Sequence record: NC_024794.1
Source: Escherichia phage vB_EcoM_PhAPEC2
DNA: 64,000 nucleotides
Reading direction: 5' to 3' (one strand)
A model generated the notes under the pieces. It was not told the DNA's origin. It worked only from the letters and a program-made list of their open reading frames with translations, and made no database searches. The position numbers were made by a program, and so were the translations under genes. Positions within the stretch are counted from its first letter, which is position 1. Each line of letters starts with the position of its first letter. Positions 23,639-59,226 of this stretch are shown here, one piece after another.

Positions 23639-24187
23639 TTAACGGGCCCATTTGATGATTTCTGTAATCAAACCATTACGTTCGCTTGCATTAAATCCTA
23701 TAACTTTGTTAGCACCATCATGATTAAGTAATTGATACGTTTGGATTTTGTTATGAATTGCAAACTCTTCAAAATGTGAAATGACTGTATTAAAACCGAA
23801 TGAAGACAAAGTAATAAGGTCGTCTTCAAAACTTTCAGTCATTTCGTTACGTGTTAAAATAATTGTGAACACATCATGGTTTTGGCAAAGACGAACATAA
23901 TCCTGCTCATAAACATCAAGAACAGAGTCCGCATCTTGTCGAATACGTCCATAAACCCAGTTACTAATATATCCACGGTCTAACAGATAAATCTTAGTAG
24001 GGTCTAAATAATTCAACATCGTTTCGAAACAGCCAACTTCATTTCGAGACTTAACATCGAAACGTCCATCAACTGTTCGTTTAGGGAAATCAATCTTTAC
24101 ATATCTTTCACTAATTTCCATTATGTCATTAATGAAAGTTGTTTTACCGGCATTATCCGGGCCATCTACTAAAATAATTTTAGCCAT
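23639..24187 (-). CDS. P-loop kinase (NMP-kinase fold)
   Basis: 182 aa; Walker A GPDNAGKTT, LLDRGY motif; occupies the slot where T4 has beta-glucosyltransferase. Confidence 0.5.
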   Translation of the reverse strand: MAKIILVDGPDNAGKTTFINDIMEISERYVKIDFPKRTVDGRFDVKSRNEVGCFETMLNYLDPTKIYLLDRGYISNWVYGRIRQDADSVLDVYEQDYVRLCQNHDVFTIILTRNEMTESFEDDLITLSSFGFNTVISHFEEFAIHNKIQTYQLLNHDGANKVIGFNASERNGLITEIIKWAR

Positions 24188-24188
24188 T

Positions 24189-25091
24189 TTATTCCTCGAT
24201 TACGACATCTTCGTATTTAGGTATATTATACGGTGAAGAAATTAAAGCATTAAAGTAGATGAACTCACCAAGACCTGGATGGAATACTTCTTCAGGATTT
24301 TCGAAATATTGAATCTTCGGACGTCCTTTAAGAATTTGATAGTACTCAGTTTTAGTTGGATTAAAAATTCGAATCAGCGCTTCTTCAGGATACTTATTTC
24401 TGTCGAAACTATTATTTGGATCAGTTATATAAAGCGGTTGACCTAATTGAATTGCGCATTCAACAACTTGTTCAAAACGATAGCATGGGTCACTAATTCG
24501 AAATGGATGAAAAATACCATCTAGATGAATAGGAGCCAAATCACCTACAAGACGCTGCATGATGGAAGGACGTATAACTTTCTGAGTTACGATAATCTTA
24601 TTACCATCTGCACCTGCGTTAACCAGCACTTCTTTTTGACGTTCATTCAACACAGTAGTTTGAAGTGAACGATTAACTGACAACATATCGGTTTTTAAGA
24701 ATTCGTCAATATAAAAACGTGGTTTATTAGGGTCTGCCGTGATATTGAAATTGAATTCTACATCAAAAGCGCCGTCATATCCAGTGATATCTGTTATTAG
24801 AAAATCACAATCATAATAAGCAATTAATGAATCAACCACAAATTCATTTTCAGACCAGAAATATTTACGAGTGTTATACGCGTTATCTTTATACCATAAT
24901 GGAACAAACTTAAATTCCGGGAAAAGACGTTCACATTCTTTAATATCAGATGCATTACGTGGATATGTAATCACATCACCTGGATTAGCACGGTGCAAAT
25001 GAAGTTGGAAGTTGCCATCCTTAAGGATAGCATACTGTCCAGTTTCATAAGACCGCATACTCAAAATAGGTACGCGGAATTTATTAGCCAT
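24189..25091 (-). CDS. hypothetical protein (300 aa) in the beta-gt slot
   Basis: TAATG-coupled to gene 42; no motif recognised. Confidence 0.5.
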   Translation of the reverse strand: MANKFRVPILSMRSYETGQYAILKDGNFQLHLHRANPGDVITYPRNASDIKECERLFPEFKFVPLWYKDNAYNTRKYFWSENEFVVDSLIAYYDCDFLITDITGYDGAFDVEFNFNITADPNKPRFYIDEFLKTDMLSVNRSLQTTVLNERQKEVLVNAGADGNKIIVTQKVIRPSIMQRLVGDLAPIHLDGIFHPFRISDPCYRFEQVVECAIQLGQPLYITDPNNSFDRNKYPEEALIRIFNPTKTEYYQILKGRPKIQYFENPEEVFHPGLGEFIYFNALISSPYNIPKYEDVVIEE

Positions 25092-25807
25092 TAGTCAAGA
25101 AATCCTTTAACATAATCAAAATCACGTTCAAACACATGGGCACTTACCATGGTATGAGTATAATCACCAACTTCTACACCGCATTCGTTAGCGATATAAT
25201 GAAGTAATTTTCCTTGGAGATAAAAATCCAACTGCATAACAACAGCACAGTTCTGAGAACGCATATGGCAGTGGGTATAAAGCTTACCATCGCGAATATA
25301 ATAAGTCACTGAGTCAGTACATGGATATTCAAGCGTTTCGTCCGAATCAAGCAAAGCCTGATCAGAACTTTCTAGAATTTGGAACACAACTCTTCGAGAG
25401 TTAGGCTTCTCTTTAAGTTCTTTTAGAAGAGCTGGTAATTGGGCCGCAATGCGAGGACCGTAGAAAGTGTTGAAGTTCGCAGGCAAAACATCTGATTTAG
25501 GTTTAGAAATAAATTTAGCGACATTAGGATATGCCTTAAATGCTTCTTCTGCATCAGTACCACCAGAAATCATAAACTTCCAGAAGTCTTCGGCATATTC
25601 ATAAGAGATGCGGTTAATACGTGGGTCGGTCATTTTGAATGATGATGGAGTGTCAACAACTACTGTCATAGACCCAATTTCATTACAACGTCCAATACGA
25701 GAATCAGTTACGAATTCCGGGTTTTCTAAAATTTCACGATTGACTGCTTTAAATGCGGCTTGAAAATCTGCGGCTTTGATATATTTCATTGTGTTATGTT
25801 TTCCCAT
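25091..25807 (-). CDS. 42: dCMP hydroxymethylase (thymidylate-synthase fold)
   Basis: 238 aa; CTDSVTYYIRDGKLYTHCHMRSQN and AHVFERD align to remembered T4 gp42 (CTNTVQYLIRD...NMRSND, LHVYSRH). Confidence 0.85.
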   Translation of the reverse strand: MGKHNTMKYIKAADFQAAFKAVNREILENPEFVTDSRIGRCNEIGSMTVVVDTPSSFKMTDPRINRISYEYAEDFWKFMISGGTDAEEAFKAYPNVAKFISKPKSDVLPANFNTFYGPRIAAQLPALLKELKEKPNSRRVVFQILESSDQALLDSDETLEYPCTDSVTYYIRDGKLYTHCHMRSQNCAVVMQLDFYLQGKLLHYIANECGVEVGDYTHTMVSAHVFERDFDYVKGFLD

Positions 25808-25849
25808 GTTTACCTCAATACAATTTATTATATACTCAATTCATAAAGC

Positions 25850-26089
25850 TTATTTGAATTTCTTGGCAATGTTGATATAACGTAAAGCTTCAGAATCTAT
25901 ACTTCCAAGAACACTATGAAGGAATGCATCAGTGTAGTATTCCAATTGAACAGGTTCTTTAATCACTTTAGCCGCTTTGGTTTCAAACAGGCCCATAAGG
26001 GCCTTTTTAAGAATTTGTTCGTTAGTGTTCAGTTTAATAGTCAAAATCTCTTCATTAAGTTTATAATTAAAAGTTTTTCTAGAAATCAT
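25850..26089 (-). CDS. hypothetical protein
   Basis: 79 aa; ATGA-coupled to downstream gene. Confidence 0.45.
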   Translation of the reverse strand: MISRKTFNYKLNEEILTIKLNTNEQILKKALMGLFETKAAKVIKEPVQLEYYTDAFLHSVLGSIDSEALRYINIAKKFK

Positions 26090-27261
26090 TCCGGGTACCT
26101 CAAAGCGTCATCAGAGTTAGTTATATCAATAATAGATATGGAGTTTTCTGCTAACCCGTTTTTAGATAATTGACGTTTATAATACCTTTCACAATATGTA
26201 CACGTTGACCCACAGATTTCATTAGCACAATCAAAATCTGGATGTCTGAACCACCTTTTTTCTAAAAAGCCATCTAACAAAGAGGTTTCAATATTTACTG
26301 TATGTGAAAACTCAGTCTCATTTTCAAGAGTGAAAATAGTCTCTAAAGGCTTCCACAGTTCTAACAAATTACCTTCAAACTTTTCAGAAGCGTATGCTTC
26401 AAGAACTTTCAAAATGTAGTCTGTGCTACCTGTACGTCCTGAAACTTTGAATTGAGTGATACCAATATCATTATAAAGTTTCAAATCTTGTGGACGAACA
26501 AAACGAGTTCTCAACCAGTTAAATGGGTCTGTATCACGAGCTTTAATACAGTGCTGCATTGGATATCCGTTTAAGGATTTAGCATCATCAGCTGTAACAT
26601 CAGTACTATGGAAAATATAGCAAGAGTCACGATAGCTACAATGTGTTGTATACCCTTTACCAGCATTAGAACAGAACTCATTTACAAGAACTTCAAATAT
26701 TATATTGTTCTTATTGCAAAACTCTGCTGCACGCTTCAGGAAAGAAACTGAACGGTTCTTATGAATTCCGCAACAGACCTTTTTGATATTATATTGGTCA
26801 TGCAAGTATTTGATTTGAGTTACAGCATCGACATGTAGAATTGTTGAAACTTCAATCTCAATGTCTTTATTGACTTCACGAACAATTTCCATAACAACAG
26901 GGTTAGCGATAGTAATACGCCATACACCTATTGACCAAAGATACTGAACATAATCCTGAATAGCTTTCTTCTTCCACTCAACTAGTTCTCTTTTTGAACC
27001 AGGATTTATCGTGTTGAGTGTATAGTTAAAGCAAATACCTAATTCGTTACAACGTTTAACGTAATCTTCTAACATCTTTTTGTCAACGTCAGGAAGCCTA
27101 AAATCAGGTCTGGCTGCTACAAAAGCCATTTCTCTTGTAGAGCCGTATACTTCGTTTATCAAGCTATTAGGATAAGTTTTATTGAGCTCTACGATTTTAT
27201 CAAGAAGAGCTAAATCAAAATTCGTTCCAATTTTAAAAGTATTCATTTTTTTGCATCTCAC
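26086..27261 (-). CDS. U32-family-like protein (putative Fe-S enzyme)
   Basis: 391 aa; cysteine cluster EFCSNAGKGYTTHCSYRDSC and KVSGRTGS resembling the U32 KIEGR signature; assignment from motif memory. Confidence 0.45.
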   Translation of the reverse strand: MRCKKMNTFKIGTNFDLALLDKIVELNKTYPNSLINEVYGSTREMAFVAARPDFRLPDVDKKMLEDYVKRCNELGICFNYTLNTINPGSKRELVEWKKKAIQDYVQYLWSIGVWRITIANPVVMEIVREVNKDIEIEVSTILHVDAVTQIKYLHDQYNIKKVCCGIHKNRSVSFLKRAAEFCNKNNIIFEVLVNEFCSNAGKGYTTHCSYRDSCYIFHSTDVTADDAKSLNGYPMQHCIKARDTDPFNWLRTRFVRPQDLKLYNDIGITQFKVSGRTGSTDYILKVLEAYASEKFEGNLLELWKPLETIFTLENETEFSHTVNIETSLLDGFLEKRWFRHPDFDCANEICGSTCTYCERYYKRQLSKNGLAENSISIIDITNSDDALRYPE

Positions 27262-27302
27262 GTTAATTGATGCGATGGTTTTTGCAGGTCTTACTTAAAT
27301 TA

Positions 27303-27689
27303 TTATAGATTCGGTTTATATGATTTAAATGTTTCGAATTCGCCTTTATTCATAAGAGCTTTGAATTCGTCAGGACGCATAGCTTTGTCGTCGATAATCC
27401 AATCATATACTGGTTTATGTGTTAGCAAATTATGGTACTTCAAGCCAATGTTTGCCAAGTTCTGAATCAGACTTGGGAGAATGTCAATTGCTATACGACC
27501 AGGACCTACTGACTTCATACCGCGAGCAGTGTAAAGCGTTATGGTATGCCCTGCATCATACAGGGCATTAATGGCAGACACCATTTCGACGTCTGGTTTG
27601 AAGTTCACGTAATCACGATTGTTATTCCACTCTGTTATACAATCATCGACATCAAAACAAAGATTAAGCATGTTTTCTACACGGTGCAT
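27303..27689 (-). CDS. small HAD-superfamily phosphatase
   Basis: track ORF 27303..27704; HAD motif I FDVDDCIT near N-terminus, later IIDDKA; start probably overlaps upstream stop. Confidence 0.55.
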   Translation of the reverse strand: MHRVENMLNLCFDVDDCITEWNNNRDYVNFKPDVEMVSAINALYDAGHTITLYTARGMKSVGPGRIAIDILPSLIQNLANIGLKYHNLLTHKPVYDWIIDDKAMRPDEFKALMNKGEFETFKSYKPNL

Positions 27690-29374
27690 TAGATTCGTTC
27701 CCATTGATGAGTGATATCGCCACCGATTGGACGATAAGAAACACCAGTTTCTTTATCAGTTAGTACCCATTTACCAGGATTTTTTGTAATCAGAGTAGCC
27801 GTTACAGGTTCTGCTACGTCATAACTAATAGAGCCGTCCTGAAGTACACGGCCCATGTTACGTAATTGCTTAGTCAGAAGTTCCATACCTTTATAATATG
27901 CGGCTACCGCTTTAAGTGGATTATTCTTGAAATAACCACCTAATGCAATCCAGATAATTGCCACAGCCAAATGATGATACTCGTTAAACGAACTCATCTT
28001 TCCATATTTGTAAACTAATGGATTGATGTTAATAGTCACATTACAAGTTGTTTCATCAATAGTAAACTGTCCCCAGGTCGGATTAGCGTTGAATTCATCA
28101 TAACCTGAAACAGCATAAAGCACTTTAGCTTCATCGTACAATTTTGGCCCGTAAATCTTGGTTTCGCCAAAATATCCACGAGGGTCGATAAACTTGACTT
28201 CGCCGTTATCAGTAATCATAGTATTACTGAAGTTAGGGTCACCATGAATAACAGAGTACTGTCCCTGAGAACGGTTATGATAACGAATAAGGTGTTCTAA
28301 AGCTTGTTTCAGCATTGGCTTCAGACGCCCAATCTTAGTGTAGTTCACATGGGTGATTTTACCAAATGAATCAATCAATGGTTGAATGCTTTCACAACGA
28401 TCAATAACTTTCGTATAGAATTCTTTAGTGAAATCACGACGAACAGTTTCAGGACTTACAAAATAAGTGTCTGTGCTGAATTTCAGTGCATCTAAAATTG
28501 CATCAACAATTTGTGGACGAGCAAGACTTGATTTGGATTTAATATATTCAAATGCCGGCTTACCTTTAATGCGTTCCATTTCAAAGTTATTTTCATTAAC
28601 AGAAACTAACTGAGGAACTGAATCTGATTTCACTTTAAGATACCATGAAATCTCATCTTTCTGAAGAGCTCGACCCTGTTCGGTTAATGCGAATTTAGTT
28701 ACAGTTTCTTCACCAATTTCAACTGCATTAAAACTACGATTAAGTTCACGAACTTCATGAGCTTTTTCAAGTTTAGGCATATCACCTAAATCAATTAGAT
28801 TCATAAGCTCTGATTTATTGAATGCGCTGCCGTAAAGGAATTCTACGAAATCACGTCCTTTGCAGTATTCATGAATTTCCTCATCGGTAGAACCCATATA
28901 GAATTCCCAGTCTTTGAACTGATAAATTCCTACAACATTACCACCTGTTGAACCTACGTTAGTGATATTTTCACCGTCGAAATTATATCGACATTCGTCA
29001 CCCTTAACATAGATTGCGTTAACATTCCAAGACCATGAACCAAAATCGGGAATAATATCACACCAGTTAACAATTACATTATGACCGTCTAAATCTTTGT
29101 GTAATTTAGCAAGAGCATAAGCAGAACCGTACGCTTCATCAACTGTACGAATAGTCACATTGAACCCTTCTTGCTCACAATAAGCTCGAACAGTTTCAGC
29201 AAATTTTGAATGAACTACTACAATAATTTCATCTGCGCCAAGGTCAGAATAAATTGTATACAAATTGCTCAGAATAGTGTCTTGTTTATAGTTAACAAGC
29301 ACCTTAGGAATATGATGCGTTATTGGATATAAACGAGTTGCCAATCCAGCACCAAGAATAACAGCTTTTTTCAT
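27689..29374 (-). CDS. bifunctional sugar-1-phosphate nucleotidyltransferase (RmlA-like) / APH-like sugar kinase
   Basis: 561 aa; N-terminal ILGAGLATRLYPIT (G-x-G-T-R-L-x-P-x-T signature); C-terminal HGDPNFSNTMI (Brenner HGD...N kinase loop). Confidence 0.7.
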   Translation of the reverse strand: MKKAVILGAGLATRLYPITHHIPKVLVNYKQDTILSNLYTIYSDLGADEIIVVVHSKFAETVRAYCEQEGFNVTIRTVDEAYGSAYALAKLHKDLDGHNVIVNWCDIIPDFGSWSWNVNAIYVKGDECRYNFDGENITNVGSTGGNVVGIYQFKDWEFYMGSTDEEIHEYCKGRDFVEFLYGSAFNKSELMNLIDLGDMPKLEKAHEVRELNRSFNAVEIGEETVTKFALTEQGRALQKDEISWYLKVKSDSVPQLVSVNENNFEMERIKGKPAFEYIKSKSSLARPQIVDAILDALKFSTDTYFVSPETVRRDFTKEFYTKVIDRCESIQPLIDSFGKITHVNYTKIGRLKPMLKQALEHLIRYHNRSQGQYSVIHGDPNFSNTMITDNGEVKFIDPRGYFGETKIYGPKLYDEAKVLYAVSGYDEFNANPTWGQFTIDETTCNVTININPLVYKYGKMSSFNEYHHLAVAIIWIALGGYFKNNPLKAVAAYYKGMELLTKQLRNMGRVLQDGSISYDVAEPVTATLITKNPGKWVLTDKETGVSYRPIGGDITHQWERI

Positions 29375-29404
29375 GTTGAAGTCCTCATTGGTAAGTAGGA
29401 GTAT

Positions 29405-29433
29405 TGTACACTATTCTAGTTAAAGCATTCATA
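29405..29433 (-). promoter_or_regulatory. MotA-type middle promoter for the nucleotidyltransferase/kinase gene
   Basis: minus strand AATGCTTTA, 12 nt, TACAAT, about 25 nt before the SD. Confidence 0.45.
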
Positions 29434-29559
29434 CTTTGCTTGTAGTCCAATCATAATCCATCCAATTACAAGTGTTGGAATCATTACTGGAGCCGTTAAG
29501 CTCCAGTAGATAGTCATGACAAGCATCAATAGTAAAAGTCCTATTGTTATTGCTTTCAT
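29416..29559 (-). CDS. small membrane peptide
   Basis: 47-aa hydrophobic ORF not in track; ATGA-coupled to the isomerase stop. Confidence 0.35.
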   Translation of the reverse strand: MKAITIGLLLLMLVMTIYWSLTAPVMIPTLVIGWIMIGLQAKYECFN

Positions 29560-30191
29560 TGTTCGCCTCGTAACATGGCACCTAGTGCACCGCCCGGGTG
29601 GAACTTAAGGAAATCATTAGAGGTAAATCCACGCTCAGACGAAAGGTTGATAGCGAACGTATCGATAAGCGCTAACAACAATGTAGTAGACATTGTCGGA
29701 GCTAAAGAGTTCTCGTCAACTTCTACCGCGATACCGGTACAGAACGTATAATCAAAAAGAGCTTCGTATTCTTGTGGAATGTCAGGGTTACAATGTAACA
29801 GAATCTGTTTAACCTGAGGACGAATCATACGAAGATGCTTAGCCACGCCTATCATTTCTTCAGTTTTACCAGAACGACTAATATGAATCAACACATCATT
29901 AGGCGCAATGAATCCTGCATCACCGTGAGAATAATGCCCAGTGTTCAAGTACATACTAGGGATACCGAGTGAAGCAAATGTCTCAGAAGCTTTAGTTGCA
30001 ATATTAGCATTCTTACCAACACCTGTAATAATTACTCGGCTTTCATAATTACTAAGTCCCGGGCGTCGAAGAGTTTCTAGAATAGCGTTATAACGAGCAG
30101 GGTTTTGACTAATTACTTTGGCCATAGCGGCCAAAGAAGAAGCTTGTTTTATGATTGCGTCAATAGCGATAGTAATAGGAGTAGTTTTCAT
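29556..30191 (-). CDS. SIS-domain sugar-phosphate isomerase, KdsD/GutQ-like arabinose-5-phosphate isomerase without CBS domains
   Basis: 211 aa; GVGKNANIATKASETFASLGIPS, HGDAG, ISRSG, LAPTMSTT, RGFTSNDF, HPGGALG all parallel E. coli KdsD SIS domain. Confidence 0.75.
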   Translation of the reverse strand: MKTTPITIAIDAIIKQASSLAAMAKVISQNPARYNAILETLRRPGLSNYESRVIITGVGKNANIATKASETFASLGIPSMYLNTGHYSHGDAGFIAPNDVLIHISRSGKTEEMIGVAKHLRMIRPQVKQILLHCNPDIPQEYEALFDYTFCTGIAVEVDENSLAPTMSTTLLLALIDTFAINLSSERGFTSNDFLKFHPGGALGAMLRGEQ

Positions 30192-58735: not shown

Positions 58736-59226
58736 TTAGGTTCCCAATCGACAATCACAATTTCTAGTTTAGTGGAATACGTATCTAAAATCTCTTCAAT
58801 GACATCCCAGTTTCCACCACCAATACCTGCACCAATTCTTGGCATATAAATTACAGGCTTTGTTATCTTATTCTTTCCGAATTCATTTAATTCTATTATA
58901 CAATTCATTAAAGCAGAGTACTCAAAATTAGGTCCAGGCTCAAACTGTGTATAAAGATTAAAGCAATAAGCTTTATGGGTCTTAAAATATTTTTCATAAA
59001 CCGAATAAGTCCCGAGTTTAGACTCGTCTCCGAATTCGGTTTGAAGTTTATCGGCTTCTAAAATTTTTGGATAAGCCTTTGCTAATTGTCCTGCCACACC
59101 AGCGCCCATTGTATGAAAACAATTACACCCATGAGCAATATTATTACCTTTAGAAAACAGGGCGACAATATCGCCCTTGATATAGTTTTTAATCACTTGC
59201 TGCAAGTCCTCTAGTATAAGAGTCAA
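58732..59226 (-). CDS. macro-domain-like protein (possible ADP-ribose binding/hydrolase)
   Basis: 164 aa; NNIAHGCNCFHTMGAGVAGQL resembles macro-domain glycine-rich loop; from motif memory. Confidence 0.45.
   Translation of the reverse strand: MTLILEDLQQVIKNYIKGDIVALFSKGNNIAHGCNCFHTMGAGVAGQLAKAYPKILEADKLQTEFGDESKLGTYSVYEKYFKTHKAYCFNLYTQFEPGPNFEYSALMNCIIELNEFGKNKITKPVIYMPRIGAGIGGGNWDVIEEILDTYSTKLEIVIVDWEPK

What the first reader, a model, noticed from the sequence alone, without database searches (positions are those of the whole stretch)
26086..27261. U32-family-like Fe-S protein inside the modification locus
The 391-aa product has a cysteine cluster (EFCSNAGKGYTTHCSYRDSC) and a KVSGRTGS block resembling the U32 KIEGR signature. 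Characterised bacterial U32 enzymes include O2-independent hydroxylases of RNA bases and ubiquinone. Its role here is unexplained: it could act on the sugar, the base or a nucleotide, or be unrelated. I regard it as the least understood component of the locus.
Basis: inference. Interest (0 to 1): 0.75.

Follow-up and report, generated by a model that had tools for sequence, protein, structure and literature searches.

The report
Oxygen-free DNA-base hydroxylase candidate in phage
This phage gene encodes a divergent U32-family iron-sulfur-type enzyme that most likely makes the 5-hydroxycytosine DNA building block without oxygen, using the host metabolite prephenate as oxygen donor; this would let the phage modify its DNA in the anoxic gut and would give the first small-molecule test system for this enzyme family.

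Summary

It lies in the arabinosyl-5-hydroxycytosine (5hoC) cluster, next to the published O2/FMN-dependent ThyA-like 5hodCMP synthase (gp48). The only label in the papers I could read is an untested "sugar or heterocycle reductase".

My reading is a prephenate-dependent, O2-independent pyrimidine C5 hydroxylase, with dCMP to 5hodCMP as the likely reaction. It would be an anaerobic alternative to gp48. The evidence is comparative only:
- Residues essential in RlhA and TrhP align to invariant E195/C208/C214.
- Two conserved Cys4-type sites are present.
- In 54 related phage genomes a chorismate mutase gene (prephenate synthesis) abuts the U32 gene. Other phage lineages have a DAHP synthase-chorismate mutase fusion there.
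- In 41 non-T-even loci, U32 sits with glycosyltransferase, sugar-activation, kinase and MazG genes, and no cytosine-hydroxylating ThyA homologue lies in the DNA held.
- Phages of strict aerobes have gp48 but no U32.

No biochemistry exists, and this window itself lacks the mutase. Confidence about 0.65. New variant of a known kind.

The parts
26086..27246 (-). U32-family protein gene (RB69 ORF050c homologue). The ORF is open up to GTG 27261; the likely start is ATG 27246 (386 aa).
26548..26679 (-). Modified U32 signature, residues E195-C238: E195, C197, C208, C214, C238. Candidate catalytic Glu and [4Fe-4S] ligands.
   Evidence: hhalign aligns E195/C208/C214 with RlhA E161/C169/C176, which are essential in RlhA and in TrhP (PMC6599085). 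In 134 relatives: C197 133/134, C208 134/134, C214 Cys 83 / His 50, C238 134/134. Coordinates checked.
26425..26448 (-). KVSGRTGS block (residues 272-279), equivalent to U32 KIEGR.
   Evidence: Aligned to RlhA K240-IEGR. K272 and R276 are invariant in 134/134.
26191..26229 (-). Family-specific C-terminal Cys4 site, C345-x4-C350-x3-C354-x2-C357. A second metal or Fe-S site, inferred.
   Evidence: Invariant in A1. Conserved in 126-129 of 134 in the broad family; spacing varies as C-x3-4-C-x2-3-C-x2-C.
25850..26089 (-). gp49, a 79-aa protein of unknown function. Its ATG overlaps the U32 stop (ATGA). It occupies the slot where most related genera carry a chorismate mutase gene, alone or next to a gp49 homologue.
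   Evidence: Not a chorismate mutase: no Pfam hit, hhalign probability 0.1%.
25091..25807 (-). ThyA-like 5hodCMP synthase (RB69 gp48 homologue), the published O2/FMN-dependent cytosine C5 hydroxylase.
   Evidence: Pfam Thymidylat_synt. PMC13326640 sections 24-25.
24189..25091 (-). DNA arabinosyltransferase 1 candidate (RB69 gp46:47 homologue).
   Evidence: Homologues sit next to U32 in 25 of 37 non-T-even loci.
23639..24187 (-). Thymidylate-kinase-like nucleotide kinase (RB69 gp45 homologue).
27303..27704 (-). HAD-type phosphatase (RB69 gp51 / AfhF analogue).
27689..29374 (-). Bifunctional sugar-1-P nucleotidyltransferase / kinase (RB69 gp52:53 / AfhE analogue).
29556..30191 (-). Arabinose-5-phosphate isomerase (RB69 gp55 homologue).

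Best explanation
gp50 is a divergent, mostly phage-borne member of the U32 'oxidase' family. I propose it hydroxylates C5 of a pyrimidine deoxynucleotide without O2, most probably dCMP to 5-hydroxy-dCMP, taking the oxygen atom from prephenate and passing electrons through one or two Fe-S centres.

In this Mosigvirus it would run in parallel with the O2- and FMN-dependent ThyA-like 5hodCMP synthase (gp48). The phage destroys dCTP and replaces all C, so it needs 5hodCTP even when its facultatively anaerobic host grows without oxygen. The arrangement would mirror the host's own paired routes: TrhO/TrhP, UbiIHF/UbiUV and NrdAB/NrdDG.

Most related genera also carry a monofunctional chorismate mutase next to the U32 gene to supply prephenate. 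This window lacks it and would depend on host PheA/TyrA. In phages that appear to infect obligate anaerobes, the U32 enzyme would be the only hydroxylase, providing the hydroxyl handle for DNA glycosylation.

Shown here: family membership, fold, conserved residues, gene neighbourhoods and phyletic pattern. Inferred: substrate, oxygen donor, Fe-S content, O2 independence and the physiological role.

For: 2. Residues. The residues essential in RlhA (E161, C169, C176) and TrhP (E162, C170, C177) (PMC6599085) align with E195, C208 and C214. C197, C208 and C238 are at least 133/134 conserved, and C214 is Cys or His.

3. Product logic. RB69 (with U32) and Acinetobacter phage DLP3 (cluster listed without a U32 homologue) both make arabinosyl-5hoC. 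U32 therefore adds no distinct chemical feature to the product. The only step shown to use O2 is the gp48 hydroxylation (18O2 labelling).

4. Prephenate link.
- A Pfam-confirmed CM_2 chorismate mutase lies between the U32 and ThyA-like genes, or directly after U32, in 54 phage records.
- It often overlaps U32 by 4 nt, and it stays attached to U32 where the pair has moved in Shewanella phage Thanatos.
- 12 of 15 dereplicated T-even-like loci carry it by clustering; a 13th (PM2) carries one by tblastn.
- Unrelated phage lineages instead carry a DAHP synthase-CM fusion (L044, L048, L057 confirmed by Pfam; L045, L046 by clustering) or DAHP synthase alone (L005 confirmed; L032 by clustering) next to U32.
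- Prephenate is the oxygen donor or required metabolite of UbiU/V, RlhA and TrhP (PMC10990095, PMC6599085).

5. Displacement. In 37 non-T-even loci U32 sits with GT (25), NT/kinase (17), API (10) and a KdsC-like HAD (16), or in MazG-like / Tmk-like / GT / U32 modules. Across these plus four genome loci (41 in all), no ThyA-type hydroxylase lies within the held flanks, against 15/15 in T-even loci.

6. Phyletic pattern. ThyA-like genes occur in 372 phage records, including 57 Acinetobacter and 20 Rhizobium phages. U32 occurs in 220 records, and every host genus listed is Enterobacterales or Shewanella. The Pseudomonas phage PspYZU05 locus also lacks it. Genome hits are all in anaerobe-affiliated assemblies.
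Against: - There are no biochemical or genetic data for this protein in any paper I could read.
- The window itself has no chorismate mutase.
- E. coli Dhakavirus JS98 makes do without U32, so it is not essential in enteric hosts.
- The canonical U32 Cys motif (CX6CX15CX3/4C) is not present as such; two ligands would have to come from family-specific positions.
- Single-sequence and profile searches do not reach any characterised U32 at equivalog level. NCBIfam gives only UbiU at 18 bits against a cutoff of 440.
- U32 also neighbours sugar genes, so a sugar role is not excluded by context alone.
- For the non-T-even loci only up to 10 kb on each side was examined, so a ThyA-type gene could lie elsewhere in those genomes.
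- Direct catalysis by any U32 protein has not yet been shown in vitro (PMC10990095; PMC11574389).
- He et al. 2026 and Mahler et al. 2025 could not be read.
Confidence: 0.65

Rival explanations
1. gp50 works on the sugar branch, for example as a reductase, epimerase or aldolase-like TIM-barrel enzyme acting on arabinose phosphate or NDP-arabinose, and has nothing to do with base hydroxylation.
For: It lies between sugar-activation genes. PMC13326640 Table 1 labels RB69p050 'sugar or heterocycle reductase' from fold hits. In non-T-even loci it often follows API, NT/kinase and HAD genes. Generic sugar-phosphate TIM barrels appear among lower fold hits.
Against: Phages without U32 (the DLP3 cluster as listed, the JS98 locus) keep the same set of sugar genes, and DLP3 makes the same arabinosyl chemistry. 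U32 also occurs in MazG/Tmk/GT/U32 and dCMP-deaminase/U32 contexts with no API or NT/kinase. This reading does not explain the recurrent chorismate mutase or DAHPS-CM neighbour. It also does not explain conservation of the residues essential for RlhA/TrhP hydroxylation.
Confidence: 0.12
2. gp50 is a U32 hydroxylase that acts on polymeric nucleic acid. It would hydroxylate cytosines in DNA after replication, or a host or phage tRNA/rRNA base as TrhP and RlhA do, rather than a free nucleotide.
For: All characterised pyrimidine-hydroxylating U32 proteins are linked to RNA polymers. The closest E. coli paralogue is RlhA.
Against: It lacks the C-terminal extensions of RlhA (653 aa) and TrhP (453 aa) and has a short Cys4 tail instead. 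Its neighbours are nucleotide-level enzymes: MazG/dUTPase-like, Tmk-like kinases, dCMP deaminase, dNK and NT5C. In RB69-type phages 5hoC enters DNA through the nucleotide pool, with dCTPase, dNMP kinase and 5hodCMP.
Confidence: 0.12
3. gp50 and chorismate mutase use chorismate or prephenate for another purpose, such as making or recycling a cofactor for the ThyA-like enzyme, or depleting a host metabolite.
For: The chorismate mutase link. Sakai et al. note that prephenate might act as a coenzyme rather than as the O donor. Phages use prephenate in another way through CmoA/Cx-SAM (PMC12783734).
Against: U32 occurs with no ThyA-like gene in the held flanks of the 41 other loci. No CmoA/CmoX-like gene appears in the annotation of the T-even clusters. 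[quoted passage not shown]
Confidence: 0.06
4. gp50 is a real peptidase (collagenase-like), as many database annotations say.
For: Annotations such as 'peptidase', 'collagenase-like protease' and PHROG 5757 'peptidase'.
Against: These names are inherited from the family label. The context is nucleotide and DNA modification, not morphogenesis or lysis. The conserved residues are cysteines and a Glu tied to hydroxylation. Characterised bacterial members are hydroxylation factors.
Confidence: 0.02

Closest known systems
RlhA (YdcP), factor for 5-hydroxycytidine at C2501 of E. coli 23S rRNA
   Same: U32 domain. Best E. coli profile match (hhalign probability 80%, E = 1.4e-5, 205 columns). The essential E-C-C residues and the K-x-x-G-R block are conserved. 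The proposed chemistry is the same: C5 hydroxylation of cytosine, prephenate-dependent.
   Different: RlhA is 653 aa with long extra regions and targets the ribosome. gp50 is 386 aa. The canonical third and fourth cysteines (C192, C196) are missing; C197 and C238 are conserved instead. gp50 has an extra C-terminal Cys4 site. Its proposed substrate is a deoxynucleotide. It does not reach any NCBIfam equivalog.
TrhP (YegQ) with its O2-dependent partner route TrhO, for ho5U34 in tRNA
   Same: A prephenate-dependent U32 route paired with an independent O2-dependent route to the same product (PMC6599085). The proposed gp50/gp48 pair has the same logic. The KIEGRTKS block is very like gp50 KVSGRTGS.
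   Different: tRNA substrate and a C-terminal U32_C-type extension. The hhalign match is weak (E = 2.6e-3).
UbiU-UbiV, O2-independent ubiquinone hydroxylases
   Same: U32 Fe-S proteins. Prephenate is proven as O donor (PMC10990095). Ligand positions vary (UbiU C169/C176/C193/C232; UbiV uses a distant Cys39), which is a precedent for gp50's non-canonical ligand set. Two clusters per functional unit, as gp50's two Cys groups may provide in one chain.
   Different: Heterodimer acting on a prenylated quinone with the UbiT lipid carrier. Sequence match to gp50 is marginal.
Phage ThyA-like 5hodCMP synthase (RB69 gp48, DLP3 gp80, the HY126 enzyme)
   Same: Proposed to give the same product, 5hodCMP, for the same pathway. 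It is encoded two genes away.
   Different: Unrelated fold (thymidylate synthase superfamily). It uses FMN and O2. It is present in phages of strict aerobes that lack U32.
Mk0906 U32 domain of Methanopyrus kandleri (PDB 5D88)
   Different: 14% identity and function unknown. It was not found by sequence or profile search of the PDB.

Membership tests
Peptidase_U32 / 'U32 oxidase' superfamily (Pfam PF01136, IPR001539) | Significant match to the family profile above the curated threshold | tested here: met
   PF01136 E = 7.4e-11, 42.2 bits, cutoff 22.4, residues 99-291. Precomputed PF01136 on nearly all homologues.
Peptidase_U32 / 'U32 oxidase' superfamily | (beta/alpha)8 barrel like the only solved member, 5D88 | tested here: met
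Peptidase_U32 / 'U32 oxidase' superfamily | Signature Glu and two Cys shown essential in RlhA (E161, C169, C176) and TrhP (E162, C170, C177) | tested here: met
   Aligned to E195, C208 and C214. E195 101/134, C208 134/134, C214 Cys 83 / His 50. The spacing differs (E-x12-C-x5-C against E-x7-C-x6-C), so the strict PROSITE-style pattern, recalled from memory, would not match.
Peptidase_U32 / 'U32 oxidase' superfamily | Four-cysteine [4Fe-4S] motif CX6CX15CX3/4C (spacing read from RlhA and TrhP; described as a shared motif in PMC10990095) | tested here: not met
   The canonical third and fourth Cys (RlhA C192, C196) are absent. Four other conserved ligand-type residues exist instead: C197, C208, C214 (Cys or His) and C238. 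UbiU and UbiV already depart from the canonical spacing.
Peptidase_U32 / 'U32 oxidase' superfamily | Binds an Fe-S cluster needed for function | not testable with these tools
   Only conservation of cysteines is available.
Peptidase_U32 / 'U32 oxidase' superfamily | Prephenate-dependent, O2-independent hydroxylation | not testable with these tools
   Indirect support only: chorismate mutase or DAHPS-CM genes adjacent in several phage lineages.
Orthologue of a characterised subfamily (RlhA, TrhP, UbiU, UbiV) | Reaches the NCBIfam equivalog score or shows full-length similarity | tested here: not met
   Only UbiU at 18.4 bits against a cutoff of 440. hhalign matches are partial. Domain architecture differs. 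It is a separate subfamily with 481 50%-identity clusters at E <= 1e-30.
Radical SAM enzymes (considered because of C350-x3-C354-x2-C357) | Conserved CX3CX2C with three ligands and an open iron | tested here: not met
   Spacing varies (x3-4, x2-3, x2) and a fourth Cys is equally conserved. No Radical_SAM Pfam hit.

The most novel reading that the evidence does not exclude
gp50 founds a large, almost purely viral subfamily of U32 enzymes that hydroxylate DNA precursors without oxygen. Phages carry their own shikimate-pathway genes (chorismate mutase, DAHP synthase-CM fusions) to supply prephenate stoichiometrically as oxygen donor. In phages of obligate anaerobes this would be the sole route to a 5-hydroxypyrimidine handle. 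If so, glycosylated 5-hydroxypyrimidine DNA is widespread and so far unseen in gut and jumbo phages. Because the substrate would be a small soluble nucleotide, gp50 would also be the first U32 protein whose catalysis could be reconstituted in vitro.
Probability: 0.45. Interest if true: 0.9.

Novelty: new variant of a known kind. Interest (0 to 1): 0.8.

Why it matters
- It would explain how phages that replace every cytosine by 5-hydroxycytosine can replicate without oxygen. The only characterised hydroxylase of the pathway needs O2, while the hosts live largely in anoxic guts.
- It would extend the U32 'oxidase' family from RNA and quinones to DNA precursors, and to viruses.
- It would reinterpret phage chorismate mutase and DAHP synthase genes as auxiliary genes that feed an oxygen donor. 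For a 168-kb genome at 37% G+C that is roughly 6e4 hydroxylations per genome copy (my estimate).
- Direct catalysis by a U32 protein, the role of its Fe-S clusters and the fate of prephenate are still undemonstrated, because the known substrates are ribosomes, tRNAs or prenyl-quinones (PMC10990095, PMC11574389). A dCMP-hydroxylating U32 enzyme would make that open question directly testable.
- The MazG/Tmk/GT/U32 and GT/API/NT-kinase/HAD/U32 modules would be markers for finding new hypermodified DNA in uncultured phages.

Tried and rejected
- PDB sequence searches: phmmer with the protein and hmmsearch with the 66-sequence profile found no U32 chain. Only fold comparison reached 5D88.
- The afdb50 fold library was not available.
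- He et al. 2026 (Nat Chem Biol) and Mahler et al. 2025 (Cell Host Microbe) are not held. Searches for Afh gene names, U32, chorismate or prephenate together with these phages found nothing relevant.
- gp49 as a diverged chorismate mutase: rejected. No Pfam or NCBIfam hit, BLAST E = 16, hhalign probability 0.1%. Tegunavirus TG1 and Serratia phage 92A1 carry both genes.
- A chorismate mutase elsewhere in the window: the only tblastn hit (58760-58927, +, E = 0.006) lies antisense to a minus-strand gene and is taken as chance.
- Radical-SAM reading of the C-terminal CX3CX2C: rejected because the spacing varies and a fourth Cys is conserved.
- The phage DAHP_synth_1 proteins as KDO-8-P synthases (suggested by the neighbouring API and KdsC-like genes): rejected. 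DAHPS models score far higher (237 against 63 bits; 134 against 47 bits), the proteins carry the KPRT motif (a DAHPS marker from memory) and some have a fused CM domain.
- The L034 thymidylate synthase as a 5hodCMP synthase: rejected. It keeps the canonical Asp and Asn equivalent to E. coli D169 and N177.
- The promoter/terminator scan gave no more sites than shuffled sequence.
- PADLOC gave no defence-system match for U32.
- The phage-database search with DAHPS-CM gave one faecal contig, cut at the gene, with no U32 downstream. This is uninformative.
Full report
**1. What is there**

It has 391 codons, from GTG 27261 to the stop at 26086 on the minus strand. Homologue alignments, the PHROG match (residues 5-391) and the annotation of the 98%-identical phage JK42 all begin at the ATG five codons further in (27246). 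The product is therefore probably 386 aa. Both quoted strings are present, at residues 195-214 and 272-279.

The window is a T-even-type phage of the genus Mosigvirus. Region 24000-30000 is about 98% identical to many E. coli and Shigella phages, and the gene is the homologue of RB69 ORF050c.

The gene lies in a tightly packed minus-strand block:
- DNA polymerase
- arabinose-5-P isomerase, 29556..30191
- a 47-aa ORF
- nucleotidyltransferase/kinase, 27689..29374
- HAD phosphatase, 27303..27704
- U32
- a 79-aa ORF, 25850..26089, whose ATG overlaps the U32 stop as ATGA
- ThyA-like gene, 25091..25807
- glycosyltransferase, 24189..25091
- Tmk-like kinase, 23639..24187
- uvsX

**2. Is it a U32 protein?**

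Yes.
- Pfam Peptidase_U32 scores 42.2 bits (E = 7.4e-11) against a gathering cutoff of 22.4.
- An AlphaFold2 model built on 66 homologues is confident (pLDDT 92.8, pTM 0.91).

It is nonetheless divergent. Neither the sequence nor the family profile finds any PDB U32 chain. NCBIfam gives only a sub-threshold touch on UbiU (18 bits against a cutoff of 440).

Among the four E. coli paralogues, fetched from MG1655, the best profile match is RlhA, the 23S rRNA C2501 5-hydroxycytidine factor: hhalign probability 80%, E = 1.4e-5, 205 columns. TrhP (E = 2.6e-3), UbiU (E = 6e-3) and UbiV (no match) follow.

In the RlhA alignment:
- E195, C208 and C214 fall on RlhA E161, C169 and C176. These residues, and their TrhP counterparts, are essential for hydroxylation in vivo (PMC6599085).
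- KVSGR falls on KIEGR.
- The canonical third and fourth cysteines (RlhA C192, C196) are missing.

In 134 diverse relatives, C197 (133/134), C208 (134/134) and C238 (134/134) are conserved, and C214 is either Cys (83) or His (50). This fits a metal-ligand set with relocated members, as already seen in UbiU and UbiV.

Its spacing varies, so it is not a radical-SAM motif. I take it as a second metal or Fe-S site (inference).

**3. What the locus makes**

Published work (Lee et al., NAR 2026, PMC13326640) shows:
- RB69 DNA carries mono- and di-arabosyl-5-hydroxycytosine, not a hydroxymethyl derivative.
- 5hodCMP is made at the nucleotide level by the ThyA homologue gp48, the gene at 25091..25807 here.
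- The gp48 preparation carries FMN, and the oxygen comes from O2 (18O2 labelling). He et al. 2026 are cited for an in vitro confirmation.

RB69p050 appears in that paper only in Table 1, as 'sugar or heterocycle reductase' on the strength of a 5D88 fold hit, with no experiment. The paper's discussion mentions the two RNA hydroxylation pathways (citing the RlhA and TrhP papers) but does not connect them with gp50.

The Thanatos paper states that it has 'no valid hypothesis' for the origin of the C5 hydroxyl and does not discuss TH1_065. No paper in the searchable library links a phage U32 or chorismate mutase to this modification. He et al. 2026 and Mahler et al. 2025 could not be read, so prior description there cannot be excluded.

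**4. Comparative evidence**

(a) Prephenate link.
- In Erwinia phage Virsaitis27 the gene after U32, overlapping it by 4 nt and followed by the ThyA-like gene, is a chorismate mutase (Pfam CM_2 44.6 bits, cutoff 27).
- tblastn finds this mutase in 54 phage records: Klebsiella, Serratia, Yersinia, Enterobacter, Proteus, Erwinia, Edwardsiella, Providencia, Morganella, Pectobacterium, Kosakonia, Escherichia EcS1 and Shewanella Thanatos phages.
- Wherever both coordinates were listed, it lies within a few hundred bases of the U32 gene.
- In Thanatos the U32-mutase pair sits at a different place in the cluster but is still joined by a 4-nt overlap.
- Of 15 dereplicated T-even-like loci, 12 carry the mutase by clustering and a 13th (PM2) by tblastn. 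Mosigvirus and Marfavirus are the exceptions.
- Independently, non-T-even phage contigs carry a fusion of DAHP synthase (first shikimate step) with a C-terminal CM_2 domain next to U32. L044, L048 and L057 are confirmed by Pfam; L045 and L046 by clustering.
- Others carry DAHP synthase alone directly after U32 (L005 confirmed, L032 by clustering). NCBIfam scores these as DAHP synthases rather than KDO-8-P synthases.
- Chorismate mutase makes prephenate. Prephenate is the proven oxygen donor of the UbiU/V steps and is required for RlhA and TrhP function (PMC10990095, PMC6599085).

(b) Displacement. The family is large: 263 hits in the 90%-identity database, and 481 50%-identity clusters at E <= 1e-30. 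It is mostly viral.

I collected 47 viral loci and 5 metagenome loci, called ORFs and clustered them. Among the 37 loci that are not T-even-like, the recurrent neighbours of U32 are:

| Neighbour of U32 | Loci (of 37) |
|---|---|
| gp46:47-type glycosyltransferase | 25 |
| gp52:53-type nucleotidyltransferase/kinase | 17 |
| KdsC-like HAD phosphatase | 16 |
| arabinose-5-P isomerase | 10 |

A second module type is MazG-like pyrophosphatase / Tmk-like kinase / GT / U32 / PolIII-alpha. dCMP deaminase is also frequent nearby.

A ThyA-superfamily gene is present in 15 of 15 T-even loci. Across these 37 loci plus four genome loci (41 in all) it is absent from the held flanks of all but one. That one (L034) has a canonical thymidylate synthase with the dUMP-type residues. 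These clusters therefore have everything needed to build a glycosylated hydroxypyrimidine except a known hydroxylase, and U32 is the conserved unassigned enzyme.

(c) Product logic. The DLP3 cluster as listed and the JS98 locus lack U32 but keep the arabosyl-5hoC genes, and DLP3 makes that chemistry. U32 therefore adds nothing distinct to the final structure. It must duplicate an existing step, act only under some conditions, or be unrelated. The only step shown to need O2 is hydroxylation.

(d) Phyletic pattern.
- gp48 homologues occur in 372 phage records, including 57 Acinetobacter and 20 Rhizobium phages and some Agrobacterium and Pseudomonas phages.
- U32 occurs in 220 records, and every host genus listed is Enterobacterales or Shewanella, that is, facultative anaerobes.
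- The Pseudomonas phage PspYZU05 locus lacks it.
- A pattern-limited scan of 100,044 species genomes found only seven loci, all in anaerobe-affiliated assemblies: Erysipelotrichales, Bacillota, Romboutsia, BRC1, Tannerella and a Phocaeicola faecalis isolate. The two 'Romboutsia' contigs are near-identical to jumbo-phage contigs.
- These counts are not phylogenetically independent, and E. coli Dhakaviruses lack U32. I treat the pattern as supportive, not decisive.

**5. Proposed mechanism**

Shown: a U32-fold protein with the hydroxylation-essential residues and two conserved Cys4-type sites, encoded in and co-oriented with the 5hoC pathway genes, and recurrently linked to prephenate-forming genes.

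Inferred:
- dCTPase yields dCMP.
- gp50 oxidises the pyrimidine ring through its Fe-S centre or centres and receives a hydroxyl derived from prephenate, as proposed for UbiU/V in PMC10990095. The product is 5hodCMP.
- The phage kinases and host NDK give 5hodCTP. After replication the glycosyltransferases add arabinose.
- gp48 does the same job with FMN and O2 when oxygen is available.

One prephenate is needed per cytosine, about 6e4 per genome copy at 37% G+C (my estimate). A deregulated monofunctional mutase, or in other phages DAHP synthase-CM, therefore makes sense as an auxiliary gene. Mosigviruses, including this window, would rely on host PheA/TyrA.

The substrate could instead be dUMP in the phages that pair U32 with dCMP deaminase. 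It could also be polymeric DNA, though I think the nucleotide level more likely because of the kinase, pyrophosphatase and deaminase neighbours.

**6. Rivals**

- A sugar-branch role is the main alternative, and it is the published guess. It fails to explain the mutase link, the sugar-gene-free contexts and the unchanged sugar chemistry in U32-less phages.
- Action on RNA or on DNA polymers, another prephenate-based role, and true peptidase activity are less likely. Details are in the rival entries.

**7. Comparison and novelty**

gp50 works, on this reading, like RlhA and TrhP (C5 hydroxylation of a pyrimidine) and is organised like the TrhP/TrhO or UbiUV/UbiIHF dual systems. It is not an orthologue of any characterised subfamily:
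- It fails the equivalog models.
- It lacks the canonical four-Cys spacing.
- It lacks the C-terminal domains of RlhA and TrhP.
- It has its own C-terminal Cys4 site.

I file it as a new variant of a known kind: a U32 hydroxylase family with a new substrate class and a viral distribution. Overall confidence in the hydroxylase reading is about 0.65. All of it rests on comparative inference.

Noticed in passing
window 25850-26089 (-): A 79-aa ORF (RB69 ORF049c homologue) has a start codon that overlaps the U32 stop (ATGA). It is conserved in Mosigvirus, Tegunavirus and Serratia phage 92A1. It has no cysteines and no family hit, and it is not a chorismate mutase. It may be a U32 accessory protein.
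   Followed up: partly
L070 3044-7137 (Phocaeicola faecalis isolate); L003 7135-11098 and L066 (Bacillota MAG): A conserved bacterial cassette: GP88-family protein, a methyltransferase (fused to a guanylate-kinase domain in L070), an unknown protein of about 265 aa, then U32. In L003 it is followed by NT5C, a PnuC-like transporter, a deoxynucleoside kinase, radical SAM/SPASM, a second U32 paralogue and a nucleoside deoxyribosyltransferase. This could be a hydroxylate-then-methylate nucleotide pathway. There is no PADLOC match for the U32 protein.
   Followed up: partly
L044 8411-9433, L048 8332-9387, L057 11085-12203; L005 11145-11891: Phage-encoded DAHP synthase with a C-terminal chorismate mutase domain, or DAHP synthase alone, lies next to the U32 gene. 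Shikimate-pathway entry enzymes seem not to be recognised as auxiliary metabolic genes of phages.
   Followed up: partly
L008, L037, L039, L043, L047, L061 (about 7-11 kb in each locus): A recurrent module: primase, then MazG-like, Tmk-like kinase, glycosyltransferase, U32, PolIII-alpha. No ThyA-type gene lies within the held flanks. This looks like a minimal pathway for a glycosylated hydroxypyrimidine in uncultured phages.
   Followed up: partly
L016 3874-5264 (Shewanella phage Thanatos-1 TH1_065/TH1_066): Thanatos carries the U32-chorismate mutase pair after the Tmk-like gene instead of before the ThyA-like gene. The published Thanatos study does not discuss either gene and says the origin of the C5 hydroxyl is unexplained.
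   Followed up: partly
residue 214 of the window protein (window 26620-26622): The position aligned with the second essential Cys of RlhA/TrhP is Cys in 83 and His in 50 of 134 family members. This ligand swap splits the family into two types.
   Followed up: no
L009 4352-4990; 212-aa ORFs just upstream of U32 in L022, L025, L028, L029: A Seg-like homing endonuclease gene is inserted immediately upstream of the U32 gene in Virsaitis27. A 212-aa ORF occupies the same position in several T-even-like loci and may be the same gene (not checked).
   Followed up: no
L067 4472-4873 and L071 9013-9414: In jumbo-phage contigs of the U32-GT type, tblastn detects a DAHPS/CM-like stretch between U32 and the glycosyltransferase gene where no ORF was called. 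It may be a decayed remnant of the DAHPS-CM gene seen intact in L057.
   Followed up: no
window 27246-27261: The mechanical ORF start (GTG 27261) is probably not the real start. Homologues and deposited annotations begin at ATG 27246, which is preceded by a GAG-containing stretch.
   Followed up: yes
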